Part shown: one piece after another, positions 1-24,714 of the stretch
Layout: every line of letters starts with the position of its first letter
Numbering within the stretch: position 1 is the first letter of the stretch
Virus record (IMG/VR): IMGVR_UViG_3300032295_001751
Location: 1-25,167 of that record
DNA: 25,167 nt
Source: a virus
Taxonomy: Duplodnaviria; Caudoviricetes
Strand: one strand, 5' to 3'
Program-made: the position numbers and the translations under genes
Notes under the pieces: model-generated
Told to the model about the DNA's origin: nothing
Seen by the model: only the letters and a program-made list of their open reading frames with translations
Database searches by the model: none

Positions 1-254
1 CGACGGTGGTCAGCGTCCTTGACGTTGAGCATCGCGATTGCCACGGCGGAATGCAGGGTGGGGTCCGCCTTGCATGCAGCCTGCAAGAGTTCGTTAGCCA
101 CCTCTGCGGGATCGAGCAAGCTCGCCGCCACGATGGCGGACTGAGACTCCGGCATCAGGAGCTTGCCGTTCTCGAAGCGCGGCAACTGGCCAACGGCTCG
201 TTCCACCTTGTTGACCAAGGTAAGCACCGTCTCCAGCCAAGCGAGAGCGTTCAT
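1..254 (-). CDS. Hypothetical protein, 3'-truncated by window edge (MNALAWLETVLTLVNKVERAVGQLPRFENGK...)
   Basis: Not in the ORF track. ATG at 254 overlaps the upstream stop (ATGA, 251-254). The frame stays open to the window edge. Confidence 0.75.
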   Translation of the reverse strand, partial: MNALAWLETVLTLVNKVERAVGQLPRFENGKLLMPESQSAIVAASLLDPAEVANELLQAACKADPTLHSAVAIAMLNVKDADHR

Positions 255-481
255 CGCGTCCCCACTTCCGCTGCACAGGAGCCAGTGGTGAGCCCGCGCT
301 TCACATAGCCATAGGCGCTCGCGCACGCCGCAGCAAGCTGACCGTCCCCTTTGTCGAGGGCTACCTTTGCGCAGTCTTTGTCGAGAGCAATCGCCTCAGA
401 CGCAACCCTCTGGCACGGAGTGATACACCCCATAATCGCAGAAGGAGCCACCAGAAGCGCCAACCATTTCGCATACTTCAT
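251..481 (-). CDS. Small Cys-rich lipoprotein (76 aa), possible outer-membrane spanin component
   Basis: Start reassigned to ATG 481 (ATGA overlap with the upstream gene). MKYAKWLALLVAPSAIMG-C19 gives a basic N-region, hydrophobic H-region and lipobox-like IMGC. Four further Cys follow. Confidence 0.7.
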   Translation of the reverse strand: MKYAKWLALLVAPSAIMGCITPCQRVASEAIALDKDCAKVALDKGDGQLAAACASAYGYVKRGLTTGSCAAEVGTR

Positions 482-696
482 ACTTTGCCTCCCGCAGCCA
501 TCTCGGCAATCGACGACACCATCTTCACCGGATCGAGCCCTGTCGCACGGAGGAACCTCGTAAACGCCGCGAGGCGTGGGTGGCGCTCGCAGCGCTCGAC
601 CCACTCCTCTGGCGTACGGGTGCGAAGGATGATGTTCAAGAGGCCGGTGATGGCCGGCCAGATGAACACGGCCCAGAGTTCGACTTTGTCGTTCAT
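478..696 (-). CDS. Small membrane protein (72 aa), holin-like candidate
   Basis: N-terminal hydrophobic helix LWAVFIWPAITGLLNIIL followed by a charged domain. ATGA overlaps on both sides. Lies after the tail fibre genes. The holin call is positional. Confidence 0.6.
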   Translation of the reverse strand: MNDKVELWAVFIWPAITGLLNIILRTRTPEEWVERCERHPRLAAFTRFLRATGLDPVKMVSSIAEMAAGGKV

Positions 697-947
697 GGCG
701 GCGGCGTCAGGTGAAAGTATCGGGCAACAGCGCTGACGATAGCACCAGCGACGGCCAGGAACACCAGCTTGAACAGCGCGTCCACGCCTTGGTCCGCCCG
801 CTTTCGCAGGCTGCGACCAAAGCGCAGATCCTCGCGGAACTCCTCAACAGAGGCGGTGTCGTCGACATCGACGCCCAGGAGCGCAAAGCACTCCCGGACG
901 GCTTTGTCAGCGGCCTCCTCTGCAATGGATTTCTGCGAGGGAGCCAT
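693..947 (-). CDS. Phage membrane protein with C-terminal TM helix (84 aa), lysis-module associated
   Basis: Helical N-part with LGVDVDD..EFREDLRFGR and a C-terminal hydrophobic helix LFKLVFLAVAGAIVSAVA. TGATG coupling at 947. Confidence 0.7.
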   Translation of the reverse strand: MAPSQKSIAEEAADKAVRECFALLGVDVDDTASVEEFREDLRFGRSLRKRADQGVDALFKLVFLAVAGAIVSAVARYFHLTPPP

Positions 948-8640: not shown

Positions 8641-10005
8641 TCAGCGAGAACCTTGGCGGGCTCTGCGACGCCGCGCTGCTTCAGCAAGTTGAGACTCGAT
8701 GCTGATAGGTCCGACCTGACCCTCAAGGCTCTTGCGCATGCGGTCCTGGCTGGCCATCTGGGTGTTGTTCATCGTCTCACGCGGCGGCTCGTACGATGCA
8801 CCAGCGTAGCTGCTACGAGTCATGTCCGGTGCTGGGAACGACGCCGCCGAGGTCGGCGTAGATTCCGCAGGCTGGGTCTTGAGCATGTTGGCCAGACCCG
8901 GATCGATGCGATCTTCTTGCAGGTTCTTGCTGATCGCACCCACGTTCTTTGGCGTAGCGGTTGGCGTAAAGTTGGCGGGAGCCGTTGCAGGTAGCCCACT
9001 GACCAAACCAGACCGTTGACCGGCAAGGTTGTCAAACATATCGCCACGCATGGCTTGCTCAGATGCGGTCACGCCCGGGAGCGGAGTGCGGACCTTAGTC
9101 CCCGGCGTCCGCGCAAGCGCCGCGTACTGCTGCGCCATCTTCTCTTCTGCCGCAAGATCGCCTGCGTCCTTCACCGCGCCGCGCATCTGGAAGCTGTACT
9201 CAGGGGCGCCCATCACCTTTGCCCAGTCGTCAGACGTCGCCGGGCCGGCAAGCGCACCACCCTTCACAACACCAGGCGCAGCGGCCAAAGCTGAGCCAAT
9301 AGCGCGACCAGCCGCAGGAGCAGCAGCAGCTCCACCAGCAGCGCCAGCCGCCGCAGGGGTACCAAACAGCGCAGCGCCAGCTTCCGCAGAGCTGATTCCA
9401 CCAGGAGCTTCCGGAGCGCCGATGCCAAGTGCCTTCTTCAAGGCTTCATCATCAGCCGCGCTGGGCGATCCGGCAGCCATGCCGAGCTTCGTGCCCATGC
9501 TGACGCCGCTCTCAATAGCCCCCGACAACGCAGCGCGTTTGCGAGCAGCGTCCTGGCGCGCACGTTCGCCCTCGTAGTACGCGAGTTGGCTTTGCGCCCG
9601 GGACTGTTCCATGGCGCGAAGGTCCGCAAGCTGCGAGGCGTACTTGGCCTGCACCTCGGGAGCCTGCTGCATCGCCTGGCGCTGAAGCCCCGCCTGCTGC
9701 TGAGCAGTGCCACGGTTGGCCAGCGCCTGGAGGTTCTGGAGCGTGTTGGCTCGGGCATACGCTGCGCCGGCTTGCGCCTGCGTCGTGCCGCCTTGAGCCA
9801 CTCGTTGGATGCCAGCGTAGGCTCGCTTCTGCGCCTCCTCGGCTTCATCGACGCCGAACAAGCCACCGAGAGCCTTCGAGATGAATGGCGTCGCCGCCCC
9901 TGCAACGCCACCGATGACGGCGCCCCAAGGCCCAGCAATGGAAGCTCCGGTTGCTGCACCAGAGGCGCCACTCTTCAACGCATCGTACCCATCCGGATCT
10001 GCCAT
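8641..10005 (-). CDS. Internal virion (ejection/pilot-type) protein, 454 aa
   Basis: N-terminal glycine zipper GASGAATGASIAGPWGAVIGGVAGAA, a Q/A-rich coiled coil and a low-complexity C-terminus. SD GAGGA. Confidence 0.75.
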   Translation of the reverse strand: MADPDGYDALKSGASGAATGASIAGPWGAVIGGVAGAATPFISKALGGLFGVDEAEEAQKRAYAGIQRVAQGGTTQAQAGAAYARANTLQNLQALANRGTAQQQAGLQRQAMQQAPEVQAKYASQLADLRAMEQSRAQSQLAYYEGERARQDAARKRAALSGAIESGVSMGTKLGMAAGSPSAADDEALKKALGIGAPEAPGGISSAEAGAALFGTPAAAGAAGGAAAAPAAGRAIGSALAAAPGVVKGGALAGPATSDDWAKVMGAPEYSFQMRGAVKDAGDLAAEEKMAQQYAALARTPGTKVRTPLPGVTASEQAMRGDMFDNLAGQRSGLVSGLPATAPANFTPTATPKNVGAISKNLQEDRIDPGLANMLKTQPAESTPTSAASFPAPDMTRSSYAGASYEPPRETMNNTQMASQDRMRKSLEGQVGPISIESQLAEAARRRRARQGSR

Positions 10006-21187: not shown

Positions 21188-22834
21188 TCAAGGACGAAAC
21201 AGCTTGAACCTGGCCGCGCGTTCATTTTTCTGGCGGATTTTCTTTTCCAGTGGCTCCCAGATTTCCTTCTCTTCGGGCGAGAGGCCTCGGTAGCCAGCCT
21301 CGAAGGAGTCCTGAGTCTGGCTCTGCTCCTGCTCGTGCCAGCGCGTGAGGGCCATGCAGATGGCTGGAGCGTAGTCGGCGTGGCGACCGTCGCCGCTCTT
21401 GGCGAGGTCGATGCTGACGCCGTTCTGGGTGTAGCGGCGCACGACGCGCTGGAGGTCTTGGCGCACGACGGGATCGGGCGGAAGCTCCACGTCGCCCAGC
21501 TCGAACATGGTGCGGAGCGTGAGGTAACGCTTGGTGCGCTCGGTCGCCGTCCAGGCGTGAGGCACGAGCACGAGGCCAACCTGGTTGGCGAGGTCGCGCA
21601 GAGCGTCGCCCATGTACTGGTCGGAGTCGAGGACGGTGACGCGATAGGCCTTCAGGATGTGCGAGATCTCCTGGAGCACCGCAGCGGGACGCAAGGGATT
21701 CACCGCGCTTCCGGTCCACTGGCGAGCCAAGCAAATCACTTTTTTCTTACGCCCGGAGCCGGTGGCGACGACCAGTGTGAAGCTGTTGCCACGGGTGGCG
21801 GGGTCGATGGCGGCTGTGTACGTCACTCCGGGCTGAGGCGCGGACGCCAGAGGAGCCTCGCGCGTGGCGGACTCGATCATACCGGTCGTGAACAGCGCCT
21901 CTTCGGGGTCGGCGAAGTCGGCCTCGATGTCGGTGCGGTAGATGCGCGGGTCTCGGCGCGCAATCTCCAGCTTGTCGTCGGTCCAGATGAGCGGGGCCAT
22001 GTCGTAGGCGGGCGCCTTGACGACGATGCAGTCCCGCGAGGGGCGCCCCCACTTCTCTTTGACGAGATCGTAGAGAAAGCCCATGGGAGCCCACGGCGAG
22101 GAGATGTAAACGAGCTGAGCGCCTGGGAGGATGCGCAAAAGCACGGCGTCGCGCAAATCATTGACCGAGACGGCGGCGTCATCGGAGCCCCAGCGCGCGA
22201 CTTCGTCGAGAATGACGCCTGCAGACCAGCGGGCCACGAGGGAGGAGCCTGCTTTGGACGAGGCGACGACCTTGATCTCGACGGGACGGCCTGAAGGATG
22301 GCGAATCATGAGCGTATCCGCCGTCGGAGTCTCCAGAATCAGCTTCGAGAGCAGCGGGGAGGCCATAGTTCGACCGACGATGTGGCCGAAGACGACGTCC
22401 GCGAGGTCTTTCGAGAGGGAGACGACGGAGATGCGTGGGATTTCACCGGGCCCAAGGCGCGAAACGTCGCACCGTTGGGACCAGTGGACGGCTAGTGCTG
22501 CAGCGGAGAGCGACTTGGCGGTTCGGATTCCCGAAACGATGGCGAACTCTGCTGGCTTAACAGCATCAGGTACGACACCTCCAAAAGCGCGCAGTACCGC
22601 TGGGTCATCAGCAAGCTCACCGAGAGGGCGACCATCGGCAACGCGAGCAATTGCGCGTTGTAGAGGGCTAGCAGTGGTGAGAGCAAAGCCCAGAGGAGAG
22701 GTGAGAAGGCCCTCGAAATGAACGAGAGACTTCTCCTCCAGGTTCTGCTTGACCCTGGCCTCGAAGGCTTGGAGGACGGCATCAGCCGACGGGGTTTTTG
22801 CGGGGGCGACCGCGACGACGGGGGGCTTCTTCAA
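21188..22834 (-). CDS. terL: Terminase large subunit, 548 aa
   Basis: Walker A-like SGIRTAKS, Walker B GVILDEVARW, coupling motif YISSPW, and RNase H-like nuclease motifs AIDPA, SDQY and HADYA. TTG start with GGAG 7 nt upstream. Confidence 0.9.
   Translation of the reverse strand: MKKPPVVAVAPAKTPSADAVLQAFEARVKQNLEEKSLVHFEGLLTSPLGFALTTASPLQRAIARVADGRPLGELADDPAVLRAFGGVVPDAVKPAEFAIVSGIRTAKSLSAAALAVHWSQRCDVSRLGPGEIPRISVVSLSKDLADVVFGHIVGRTMASPLLSKLILETPTADTLMIRHPSGRPVEIKVVASSKAGSSLVARWSAGVILDEVARWGSDDAAVSVNDLRDAVLLRILPGAQLVYISSPWAPMGFLYDLVKEKWGRPSRDCIVVKAPAYDMAPLIWTDDKLEIARRDPRIYRTDIEADFADPEEALFTTGMIESATREAPLASAPQPGVTYTAAIDPATRGNSFTLVVATGSGRKKKVICLARQWTGSAVNPLRPAAVLQEISHILKAYRVTVLDSDQYMGDALRDLANQVGLVLVPHAWTATERTKRYLTLRTMFELGDVELPPDPVVRQDLQRVVRRYTQNGVSIDLAKSGDGRHADYAPAICMALTRWHEQEQSQTQDSFEAGYRGLSPEEKEIWEPLEKKIRQKNERAARFKLFRP
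22492..22782 (-). CDS. Putative overprinted membrane protein (96 aa) inside terL, +1 frame
   Basis: ATG is coupled to the upstream stop by TGATG. Basic N-terminus then a ~55-aa Leu-rich hydrophobic stretch. 28 of 57 terL codons over 22559-22729 end in T. Confidence 0.5.
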   Translation of the reverse strand: MPSSKPSRPGSSRTWRRSLSFISRAFSPLLWALLSPLLALYNAQLLALPMVALSVSLLMTQRYCALLEVSYLMLLSQQSSPSFRESEPPSRSPLQH

Positions 22835-23084
22835 CGACGGTCTCCGGTGCAGCTTCGACTACTTCTTCGCCTTCGACGGGGGCTTCATCGGGAGTGGTGT
22901 CGGGCTTAATGGATCGAAGCTCCACGACGTTGTCGAGGGGGACGAGGACGTCGCCGGAGCGGACGAAGCCTTGCTCGAAGCGGAGGTCTTTGTGCTTGGG
23001 GCGGTAGAGCGTGGTCGTGATGCGGCCTGGGTCGGCGGGGTCGTTGACGCCACGGAGGAAGACGGCTTGTTGGAGCAGGAGCAT
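22782..23084 (-). CDS. Small protein with C-terminal AT-hook-like motif (100 aa), candidate terminase small subunit / DNA-binding protein
   Basis: C/G-ending codon bias in this frame. Small beta-like N-domain, acidic linker, then PRRRGRPRK. Directly upstream of terL. Confidence 0.7.
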   Translation of the reverse strand: MLLLQQAVFLRGVNDPADPGRITTTLYRPKHKDLRFEQGFVRSGDVLVPLDNVVELRSIKPDTTPDEAPVEGEEVVEAAPETVVEEAPRRRGRPRKNPVG

Positions 23085-23317
23085 TCGTGAGCCTTTCGGA
23101 TAGCGGGGAGCAGTAGCTCGATGAAGGTGAGTTCGATGTCTTGGGTGGACTGGTAGTCGGGCGACACGAGGCGCACCGAGTGAGGGCCGAAGGAGTGGAC
23201 GGCCCAGCCGAAGTACTCGGCGATGGGCTCGGCGTACTTACGCCACGCATCGCAGTAGGCCTTGGCCGAGGTGGTGACGCGCCCGCCCGGGACGCGGCGC
23301 TTGATGGAGTCGCTCAT
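22859..23317 (-). CDS. Hypothetical protein, 152 aa (C-terminal half overlaps next gene)
   Basis: ATG 23317 in ATGA overlap. The first ~77 aa look globular (YCDAWRKYAEPIAEYFGW). The rest is S/T/P-rich read-through across the next gene. Confidence 0.65.
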   Translation of the reverse strand: MSDSIKRRVPGGRVTTSAKAYCDAWRKYAEPIAEYFGWAVHSFGPHSVRLVSPDYQSTQDIELTFIELLLPAIRKAHECSCSNKPSSSVASTTPPTQAASRPRSTAPSTKTSASSKASSAPATSSSPSTTSWSFDPLSPTPLPMKPPSKAKK

Positions 23318-23703
23318 GGTGCTTCCGTTCTGCACTTCCAGCAGGTGAAACCATGCGACACCGATATCCACCCCGCAGGGCAGTGATTCGCCAGACACGC
23401 GTACTCACAGATGTGGCACTTGTACTTGAGAGTGGTGTCGGCATGAGTGCGCGGCGTCATGCTGTCTGCGGCTGGGTAGTCATCAAAGGAGGTCTTTTGG
23501 TCCCTCTTGTTGGCCGCGCGAGTCTTCAGCTCACCGACGACGAAGCTGGCGGCGTTCATGGCCTCGAAGGCTCTTCCGCTGCGTGCCAGCTCGATGAGGC
23601 TGACGAACACGGTGTGCATCTTCCGCAGCGTCTCTGGGTCTGGGGCCTGGACAGCAAGCTCGTCAATCAAGTCATTCGTTCGCTCGATCTGTTTGCGCTT
23701 CAT
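23314..23703 (-). CDS. Hypothetical protein with C-terminal Zn-ribbon (129 aa)
   Basis: ATG 23703 in ATGA overlap. Motif CHIC-x9-PAGW-x8-CWKC. Confidence 0.7.
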   Translation of the reverse strand: MKRKQIERTNDLIDELAVQAPDPETLRKMHTVFVSLIELARSGRAFEAMNAASFVVGELKTRAANKRDQKTSFDDYPAADSMTPRTHADTTLKYKCHICEYACLANHCPAGWISVSHGFTCWKCRTEAP

Positions 23704-23861: not shown

Positions 23862-24180
23862 GGGTTTCCTCCACGAAGCATCCAAGCACACTCCCACACT
23901 CAATCAACAAAGAAGTGAACGCGTGCAACATACACCGATGCACCGTCCAATTCCAGCCCACCAGCTACCCATGCTGCACAATACAAGCATCCATCACCAG
24001 CAAACCCAGCCTCCAGGACTACCAAGTACGAATCTGACTTCCAACTATCCTTCATCTGTGTCTAGTTTGGAACCGCAGGGGAGGTTCTCTGTGACCTTGC
24101 GGCAGCAAGCGTCACCCAGTACCCGCGCCCCTACGCACAAACCCGGCTCTCGAACTGTCCTGTGGTTCCGGATGGTTGCT

Positions 24181-24289
24181 GTAAGACCGCGTAAGACCGG
24201 AATGGTCGGCGCAGGAAAATTTTTGAGGAGGGTAACCCCCCCTAGGTCCCCCCTTAAAATAGTGCAGACAGGGGTCCAAGTCCTTGAAA
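24181..24289. other. Putative packaging-initiation / genome-terminus region
   Basis: Non-coding and upstream of the terminase arm. Contains tandem GTAAGACCG x2, AAAATTTTT, C7-TAGGT-C6, and an IHF-like site (minus strand TTTCAAGGACTTG, 24277-24289). Confidence 0.4.
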
Positions 24290-24698
24290 ACACAGGACAA
24301 ACACGTCCCTCCCGGCAAAGACGAGGGTCGGCGGGATGCGATATGGTTGGACGCGATAGAATCGTGGACGATTGAGTCGCGCGCGATGGTCCCAAGGGGT
24401 CCACGACGCCTCGTCACTCACGTCAGCGTCACGCACCGACCCAGCACGCGGACCGCGCCGTGACCCTGTAGGCTGGCACCATGTAGAGGGAGCGCGCAAC
24501 CATGAAAACGTTGCATAGCGCTATGACCCTCGAGTCACAGCGAGCTAAGTACTCGAGACTGCTAGCGTTGTCGGCGTTTTGATGCTTCGGACGCTTTCGG
24601 ACCATGACAAGCGTGTCCTGGTAGGCTTTCCTTCGCTGGCACGCCTTGCACGCTGGTTTCCTTGCGCTTTCCCTGGCGAAACGCTGATTAATCGTACT

Positions 24699-24714
24699 TG
24701 GCACGGGGTGTGCT
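24699..24714 (+). promoter_or_regulatory. Sigma54 (RpoN) -24/-12 promoter
   Basis: TGGCACG-GGGT-GTGCT vs consensus TGGCACG-N4-TTGCW. Exact GG-N10-GC spacing with one mismatch. Intergenic, at the head of the plus-strand arm. Confidence 0.7.

What the first reader, a model, noticed from the sequence alone, without database searches (positions are those of the whole stretch)
22492..22782. Overprinted membrane-protein gene hidden in the 5' end of terL
Seen: the upstream gene's stop overlaps an ATG (TGATG at 22780-22784), the same coupling used at 947, 14890, 16302, 16571 and 25061. Here that ATG opens the +1 frame rather than terL, which must start at a TTG 52 nt upstream. By my hand count, 28 of 57 terL codons over 22559-22729 end in T, versus about 1 of 39 in 21901-22020. 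Those Ts become second-position Ts, giving a basic N-terminus plus FISRAFSPLLWALLSPLLALYNAQLLALPMVALSVSLLMTQRYCALLEVSYLMLLS (1-2 TM helices). Known precedents: phiX174 lysis gene E nested in D, and T7 19.2/19.3 nested in the terminase gene. Inference: a real nested gene. It might be a holin/antiholin, a single-gene-lysis-like toxin, or a membrane anchor, linking packaging expression to lysis timing and diverting ribosomes away from terL.
Basis: partly seen in the sequence, partly recalled or inferred. Interest (0 to 1): 0.75.

Follow-up and report, generated by a model that had tools for sequence, protein, structure and literature searches.

The report
Membrane gene hidden inside phage terminase
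In a group of uncultured freshwater phages, a second reading frame inside the DNA-packaging (terminase) gene is kept open and hydrophobic across many diverged relatives, so it very likely encodes a newly born small membrane protein, probably a helper in the timing of host-cell lysis.

Summary
T ends 28 of 57 terL codons in the patch against 50 of 434 downstream. In 27 lineages the +1 frame has no stop over terL codons 33-113; about 5 of 27 are expected, and only 4 of 35 outgroup lineages are open. Stop-making synonymous codons occur at 1 of 373 sites inside, 188 of 1622 outside. All 27 have a usable start: 18 at or just after the upstream stop, 3 behind their own Shine-Dalgarno, 6 in frame 12 nt behind the stop. 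TerL is ancestral; the nested gene arose de novo in one clade. It is not the main holin: a separate lysis cassette is shared with the sister clade that lacks it. 'Diverting ribosomes from terL' is poorly supported. Against: no translation data, no dip in synonymous variation, weaker hydrophobicity in 7 of 27, function untested. The scan earlier noted membrane genes nested in terL of marine phages, with no sequence look-alike.

The parts
22492..22782 (-). Nested +1-frame ORF X, 96 aa: Ser/Arg-rich basic N-terminus, two hydrophobic segments, polar tail; 9 K+R, 3 D+E
   Evidence: no Pfam/PHROGs/phage-record hit
22660..22710 (-). Hydrophobic segment 1 of X (residues 25-41, terL codons 42-58); Leu30 invariant in 27 of 27
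22606..22650 (-). Hydrophobic segment 2 of X (residues 45-59, terL codons 62-76); Leu53 in 26 of 27, next residue Trp in 21 of 27 (Ser in the window)
22780..22784 (-). TGATG: stop of upstream gene B overlapping the ATG of X (coupled restart, inferred)
22559..22729 (-). T3-rich patch of terL (28 of 57 codons), conserved in the clade, absent in the outgroup
21188..22834 (-). terL, terminase large subunit, 548 aa, TTG start; ancestral frame
   Evidence: phrog_9 E 1.3e-8; relatives; tree
22842..22845 (-). GGAG Shine-Dalgarno-like site 7 nt before the terL TTG, inside gene B
22782..23084 (-). Upstream gene B, 100 aa: conserved 60-aa beta domain, acidic linker, basic C-terminal RRRGRPRK; clade-restricted like X
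   Evidence: no significant fold match
3..947 (-). Separate lysis cassette at the far end of the same operon: 84-aa and 72-aa membrane proteins, a lipoprotein-like gene, a further gene; a glucosaminidase endolysin follows in complete relatives, beyond the window edge

Best explanation
A +1 frame inside the 5' end of terL is kept open, hydrophobic and supplied with a start codon across one phage clade, and it likely encodes a de novo inner-membrane protein that would act as a dispensable lysis accessory, tuning when the infected cell opens. Shown by sequence comparison: open frame, stop avoidance, start retention, hydrophobic core, clade restriction, TerL as the older frame. Inferred: ribosomes finishing gene B restart on X while TerL is made from its own weaker SD-TTG start, so X would appear at the head of the packaging and virion operon, ahead of the holin candidates and endolysin at its far end. 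Inferred: one or two helices insert in the inner membrane with basic ends in the cytoplasm. Guessed: it holds back or adjusts the separate holin/endolysin cassette. I put the gene being real and translated at about 0.87 and this particular role at about 0.35-0.4.
For: Open +1 frame over codons 33-113 in 49 of 49 loci examined plus the window, 27 of 27 lineages; 25 of 25 further loci, mostly re-finds of the same lineages. Null recoding expects 4.9 (outside codon usage) or 4.7 (the zone's own T-rich usage) of 27; longest stretch stop-free in all lineages is 81 codons, next 33. Outgroup 4 of 35 open, T3 0.10 in and out. Stop-making codons 1 of 373 vs 188 of 1622; Leu/Val before A: 0 of 115 vs 137 of 416, while G/A-ending Leu/Val codons are common in the zone where harmless (57 of 140 before C). 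T3 in codons 42-74 is 0.65 where C would give Pro, 0.36 where C gives Ala; no such difference outside (0.13, 0.15); site-level p 0.024. ATG-making synonym at 20 of 22 eligible sites in codons 14-22 vs 59 of 302 beyond codon 113. Lineages that lost the coupled start carry GAGGAG + 7 nt + TTG (L001, L026) or GTG (L049). KD19 >= 1.6 in 20 of 27, against 0.001 under outside-usage recoding. Lysis cassette shared with the sister clade, so X is an add-on. Precedent for T3-to-T2 membrane overprinting: phiX174 E in D (PMC8227390, passages).
Against: No RNA, ribosome or peptide evidence. Pairwise synonymous difference in codons 31-80 (0.47-0.53) lies within the range for the rest of terL (0.42-0.68), so there is no Synplot-type dip. 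X is loosely conserved (mean column identity 47%, much of it imposed by TerL), which fits a specific antiholin poorly. 7 of 27 lineages have KD19 of only 1.23-1.59, and once the zone's T-rich usage is granted, 29% of random recodings reach 1.6. The 27 lineages are related (roughly 10-12 subclades), so counts overstate independence. The stop position wanders from codon 114 to 144. Nothing ties X to lysis except membrane character and position in the late operon.
Confidence: 0.38

Rival explanations
1. X is a real membrane protein, but it guards the infected cell: superinfection exclusion, receptor or pilus blocking, or inhibition of a host defence that is triggered when TerL or portal appear. 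Sitting inside terL would guarantee it is made together with the trigger.
For: All evidence for a real membrane gene applies. Clade-restricted, fast-changing, non-essential, and no change in the lysis cassette came with it. Small two-helix exclusion proteins (T4 Imm) and terminase-sensing Avs defence systems are known (recalled, no call).
Against: No homology to any exclusion or anti-defence protein. Exclusion genes are usually early or lysogen-expressed (recalled); X heads the late operon. Host defences were not examined.
Confidence: 0.3
2. X is itself a holin or a single-gene-lysis-type toxin.
For: Size (90-123 aa), one or two hydrophobic segments, basic ends, +1 embedding as in phiX174 E and leviviral sgl genes (PMC8227390 and PMC7693330 passages).
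Against: A cassette with two membrane proteins, a lipoprotein-like gene and an endolysin exists elsewhere; the 72-aa protein is in 5 of 5 ingroup records and 4 of 4 complete sister records, the endolysin in 4 of 4 sister records. A lytic protein made at the head of the late operon would kill before particles are finished (inference).
Confidence: 0.1
3. No functional protein: the T3 patch is a DNA- or RNA-level signal (pac site, terminase binding, unstructured mRNA) or a translation-only control element, and the open frame is a by-product.
For: No synonymous dip; low protein conservation; a non-conserved T3 patch with a hydrophobic +1 frame exists elsewhere in the window; T-rich usage alone makes hydrophobic +1 peptides fairly often.
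Against: T-rich usage does not explain stop avoidance (expected 4.7 of 27 open), the context-specific lack of G/A only where it makes a stop, the Pro-avoiding bias, or replacement starts with their own SD. A3 is not raised in codons 41-80 (0.10). No conserved RNA fold (consensus -13 kcal/mol, covariation -0.71; z -1.28); no promoter or terminator match.
Confidence: 0.12
4. X is a membrane anchor that tethers the packaging machine or gene B's product to the membrane, possibly as a gene B-X readthrough fusion where the two are in frame.
For: X and gene B share the same clade restriction and are coupled; in 6 of 27 lineages they are in one frame, 12 nt apart.
Against: In 21 of 27 lineages they are in different frames with five different start geometries. 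The sister clade packages DNA without either gene.
Confidence: 0.08

Closest known systems
phiX174 lysis gene E nested in D
   Same: +1 frame inside an essential morphogenesis gene; T-ending codons of the old frame become Leu-rich membrane segment in the new frame (PMC8227390, passages); similar length
   Different: E is the phage's only lysis protein and blocks cell-wall synthesis; here a full lysis cassette exists elsewhere, the phage is tailed dsDNA, and there are two hydrophobic segments. No sequence match.
T7 genes 19.2 and 19.3 nested in terminase gene 19
   Same: Both lie in the +1 frame of terL (V01146 annotation)
   Different: They sit mid-gene (38016-38273, 38553-38726 within 37370-39130), are weakly hydrophobic (KD19 1.12 and 1.02 vs 1.76 here) and are not coupled to an upstream stop; no homology.
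Leviviral sgl genes embedded in rep (+1 frame)
   Same: De novo membrane peptides in the +1 frame of the largest enzyme gene (PMC7693330, passages)
   Different: ssRNA phages without endolysin; sgl genes fall mostly in poorly conserved Rep regions, whereas X overlies a TerL motif conserved in the outgroup.
Lambda Rz1 / T7 18.7 embedded o-spanins
   Same: Envelope protein embedded in the +1 frame of another gene
   Different: X has no conserved Cys after its hydrophobic region, its host gene is terL not an i-spanin, and a lipoprotein-like gene exists in the lysis cassette.
Membrane ORFs nested in terL of marine phages
   Same: +1 overprint on the terL ATPase region, membrane-targeted, basic loose tail
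   Different: Those are noted as about 170-236 codons with lipoprotein-like leaders; X is about 100 codons without lipobox; a TerL of this clade found no look-alike among those windows, so probably an independent origin.

Membership tests
Overprinted (de novo) viral gene | Alternative frame kept open beyond chance in diverged relatives | tested here: met
   27 of 27 vs about 5 expected; 1 of 373 vs 188 of 1622
Overprinted (de novo) viral gene | Narrower distribution than the host frame | tested here: met
   One clade, support 100; outgroup 4 of 35 open, no T3 bias
Overprinted (de novo) viral gene | Conserved initiation signal | tested here: met
   Start in 27 of 27, ATG-making synonym 20 of 22, replacement SD-led starts
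Overprinted (de novo) viral gene | Reduced synonymous variation in the host frame | tested here: not met
   0.47-0.53 in codons 31-80 vs 0.42-0.68 elsewhere; bias is in composition, not invariance
Overprinted (de novo) viral gene | Translation shown | not testable with these tools
   needs ribosome profiling or proteomics
Holin / antiholin | Small protein with 1-3 transmembrane segments and charged ends | tested here: inconclusive
   KD19 >= 1.6 in 20 of 27; no topology predictor run; model is one long helix, pTM 0.26
Holin / antiholin | Location in or beside the lysis cassette | tested here: not met
   cassette is at window 3-947 and beyond, about 21 kb downstream
Holin / antiholin | Homology to a holin family | tested here: not met
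   no Pfam or PHROGs hit; best PHROG E 0.036, unnamed, among 27 members
Holin / antiholin | Timed membrane permeabilisation or holin inhibition | not testable with these tools
   bench test needed
Single-gene lysis protein (E, L, Sgl) | Sole lysis function; no endolysin in the genome | tested here: not met
   PF01832 / phrog_3513 endolysin in 2 of 2 complete ingroup genomes scanned
Embedded o-spanin (Rz1-like) | Lipobox with conserved Cys; embedded in an i-spanin gene | tested here: not met
   no column has Cys in more than 10 of 27; host gene is terL; lipobox definition recalled
T7 gp19.2 / gp19.3 | Sequence homology and mid-terL position | tested here: not met
   tblastn no match in 50,697 phage records; different position and hydropathy

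The most novel reading that the evidence does not exclude
The ATPase-coding 5' part of terL is a recurring cradle for new membrane genes in tailed phages, and X is an independently born one whose job is tied to terminase expression: made in step with TerL, it silences a membrane-level host response or holds lysis until packaging is done, and the clade has rebuilt its start signal several times rather than lose it.
Probability: 0.15. Interest if true: 0.85.

Novelty: new variant of a known kind. Interest (0 to 1): 0.6.

Why it matters
It is a clean, datable case of gene birth by overprinting in a tailed dsDNA phage: the sister clade keeps the same TerL motif and lysis cassette but has stops in this frame, so before and after can be compared. 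It overlies a conserved part of an essential motor, has forced recoding of about 35 codons, and shows start-signal turnover (coupled ATG, overlapping TTG, new SD-led TTG or GTG). Annotation misses it: a profile search of 1.8 billion representatives found only 5 true hits. With T7 19.2/19.3 and the marine cases noted earlier by this scan, it suggests terL-nested genes are a recurring and unstudied class. A TerL-silent knockout is straightforward once a host is cultured, and the protein can be tested for membrane activity in a laboratory strain now.

Tried and rejected
Homology of X: none in Pfam or PHROGs, word-indexed protein search (31 candidates, none at E <= 10), ESM Atlas (best 0.78, below use), phage records; the profile search gave 5 clade members and 1 repeat artefact. 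AlphaFold model of X: one long helix, pTM 0.26, not used for a fold search. Complex of X (residues 15-80) with the 72-aa holin candidate: no answer, score 0.00, counted neither for nor against. No RNA holder listed for the stretch, no evidence on expression. Conserved RNA structure, promoter, terminator: not found. Other frames: +2 and the three antisense frames carry stops across lineages in the zone. Indel putting ATG 22782 in the terL frame: not seen, and relatives share the layout. Tat signal: the Arg pair is a shadow of TerL codons and is left out by the codon-37 start. Gene B fold: weak Hfq/Sm or SH3-like rows only, Foldseek E >= 0.32 in PDB and >= 0.027 in BFVD, best Z 4.0. PDB sequence search with TerL gave nothing useful. 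First X alignment had one row in the wrong frame and was redone. Tree is the quick version; the careful search did not finish. Literature: no paper describing this clade or this ORF in searches; subscription journals are mostly not covered.

Full report
Observation. The window is a 25,167-base virus record holding, on the minus strand, terL (21188-22834, phrog_9), a portal-like gene, an SU10-type capsid gene and downstream virion genes. The 96-codon ORF at 22782-22492 is there, its ATG overlaps the stop of the upstream gene as TGATG, and the five other junctions cited are right. The T3 counts reproduce exactly, 28 of 57 and 1 of 39; the rest of terL has 50 of 434. TerL has no other standard start near its 5' end, and its TTG at 22834 has GGAG 7 nt upstream. 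One caution: another gene in the window has a 31-of-57 T3 patch with a hydrophobic +1 frame that is not kept in 3 of 3 relatives, so the single-genome picture could not have settled the matter.

Relatives. A scan of viral contigs gave 52 loci at 79-89% TerL identity. Two partial loci (L025, L052) were dropped; one lacking the 5' end (L011) and one with a broken terL (L012) were left out of the codon alignment. The other 48 plus the window fall into 27 lineages at under 95% nucleotide identity, 72-81% to the window. In 49 of 49 loci examined and the window, the +1 frame has no stop over terL codons 33-113; it ends at codon 114, 124, 127, 137, 140 or 144. A further 25 loci agree, 25 of 25, but nearly all are re-finds of the same lineages. 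Random synonymous recoding leaves this stretch open in 4.9 of 27 lineages with codon usage from the rest of terL and 4.7 of 27 with the zone's own T-rich usage; the longest stretch free of stops in all lineages is 81 codons, the next 33. Where a synonymous codon would make a +1 stop it is used at 1 of 373 sites in codons 22-113 and 188 of 1622 outside; for Leu/Val before A the figures are 0 of 115 and 137 of 416, although G/A-ending Leu/Val codons are frequent inside the zone where harmless (57 of 140 before C). The lineages are related, roughly 10-12 subclades, so these counts are not independent draws.

Outgroup and direction of birth. From 47 more distant loci chosen (one proved to be ingroup), 35 lineages at about 37-57% identity remained after removing near-copies; codon numbering there is approximate. 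Only 4 of 35 are open over the same stretch, and T3 is 0.10 inside and outside, against 0.33-0.55 inside for the ingroup. The same TerL motif often makes a +1 stop in the outgroup (codon 52 in 12 of 35) and in 0 of 27 ingroup lineages. The ingroup is one clade with support 100 in a quick tree. TerL is therefore the old frame and X arose once, de novo, on the long branch to this clade.

Is the protein what is selected? In codons 42-74, fourfold sites end in T at 0.65 where C would give Pro in X, 0.49 where C gives Ser and 0.36 where C gives Ala; outside the values are 0.13, 0.11, 0.15 (site-level p 0.024 for the Pro/Ala contrast). A3 is not raised in codons 41-80, which argues against plain AT-richness. 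X has a Ser/Arg-rich start, hydrophobic segments at codons 42-58 and 62-76 and a polar tail; the best 19-residue hydropathy is at least 1.6 in 20 of 27 and 1.23-1.59 in the other 7. Against: there is no dip in pairwise synonymous difference, mean column identity of X is only 47% with one invariant Leu, and the zone's T-rich usage alone gives hydropathy of 1.6 in 29% of recodings. No conserved RNA fold, promoter or terminator was found.

Starts. Of 27 lineages, 14 have an ATG overlapping or within 2 nt of the upstream stop (TGATG 2, ATGA 4, TGA-nn-ATG 8); 3 have TTG overlapping it as TTGA with GGAG upstream; 1 has TTG 8 nt after it; 6 have the upstream gene in X's frame with ATG 12 nt after its stop, and there the stop overlaps the terL ATG; 3 have lost the coupled start and carry GAGGAG, 7 nt, then TTG at codon 37 (L001, L026, sister lineages) or GTG at codon 29 (L049). 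The ATG-making synonym is chosen at 20 of 22 eligible sites in codons 14-22, both exceptions being second sites in lineages that already have one, against 59 of 302 beyond codon 113. A database relative of a TTG lineage has Met at the same position (P0123). TerL itself has an SD-led TTG inside gene B in about 10 lineages, so it does not depend on the coupling that feeds X.

Context. Complete relatives carry a lysis cassette at the far end of the operon: 84-aa and 72-aa membrane proteins, a lipoprotein-like gene, one more gene, and a glucosaminidase endolysin (PF01832, phrog_3513); the first four lie at window 3-947. The 72-aa gene is in 5 of 5 ingroup records. The sister clade, which lacks X, has the endolysin in 4 of 4 complete records at 61-65%, the 72-aa gene beside it in all four, and the 84-aa gene in 3 of 4. 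It lacks gene B (0 of 4 complete records). X is thus an add-on, not the main holin. Gene B is a 60-residue beta domain with a basic tail and no significant fold match. The host is probably a myxobacterium: one ingroup locus lies in a deltaproteobacterial bin and several distant ones in Polyangiaceae/Myxococcota bins, though other bins are plainly unrelated and binning may be wrong.

Mechanism. Most likely ribosomes finishing gene B restart on X, so X is made at the head of the packaging and virion operon and enters the inner membrane by one or two helices (inferred). I commit to a lysis-tuning accessory as the single most likely role (about 0.38), with exclusion or anti-defence close behind (0.3); holin or single-gene lysis (0.1), no protein (0.12) and anchor (0.08) are less likely. 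The choice of role rests on membrane character, position and dispensability, not on a direct test. X has no homolog outside the clade.

Known systems. phiX174 E in D shows the same T3-to-T2 route to a membrane protein (PMC8227390, passages read). Leviviral sgl genes favour the +1 frame of rep (PMC7693330, passages). T7 19.2 and 19.3 are annotated in the +1 frame of gene 19 but are mid-gene and weakly hydrophobic; 19.2 is called conserved in T7-like phages (PMC4038870, one passage). Rz1-type embedding is described in PMC4283147 (passages) and bioRxiv 2022.06.14.493971 (passages). PMC4324244 (passages) reports expressed embedded ORFs in phage Patience that are not conserved, unlike X. T4 Imm, Avs sensing of terminase and the lipobox are recalled, not from a call. 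No supplements were read. Searches found no description of this ORF or clade. Earlier notes of this scan describe longer, lipoprotein-like genes nested in terL of marine phages; a TerL of this clade has no look-alike among them, so this looks like an independent case. Those notes are unchecked leads, not support.

Verdict. A real overprinted membrane-protein gene is very likely (about 0.87). It is a new variant of a known kind, with an unusually clear evolutionary record and an open function. Interest 0.6.

Noticed in passing
window 9428-9264 (-), inside gene 8641-10005: Second T3 patch (31 of 57 codons) giving a 54-codon Leu/Arg-rich hydrophobic +1 stretch from a TTG (KD19 2.32); not seen in 3 of 3 complete relatives, where this part of the gene is variable. 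Could be a young, lineage-specific overprint or chance.
   Followed up: partly
window 22782-23084 (-): Gene B: clade-restricted 60-aa beta domain with weak, non-significant Hfq/Sm or SH3-like resemblance and an AT-hook-like RRRGRPRK tail (label recalled); sits where terS is expected but does not look like one.
   Followed up: partly
window 22859-23398 (-): The gene upstream of gene B runs about 75 codons over gene B and stops 24 nt before the terL TTG in the same frame; overlap length varies among relatives.
   Followed up: no
window 3-947 (-): Unannotated lysis cassette (two membrane proteins, lipoprotein-like gene, one more gene) next to a glucosaminidase endolysin in complete relatives; candidate new holin and spanin families.
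   Followed up: partly
P0125: A predicted protein joining the TerL N-terminus to the X frame, on one 897-nt contig; probably a sequencing or assembly error.
   Followed up: no
L012:1929-3155: terL frame ends after 409 codons in this locus, unlike its near-identical relative L010.
   Followed up: no
window 23900-24700: Apparently non-coding stretch at the switch between minus- and plus-strand genes, with skew changes; possible control region or origin.
   Followed up: no
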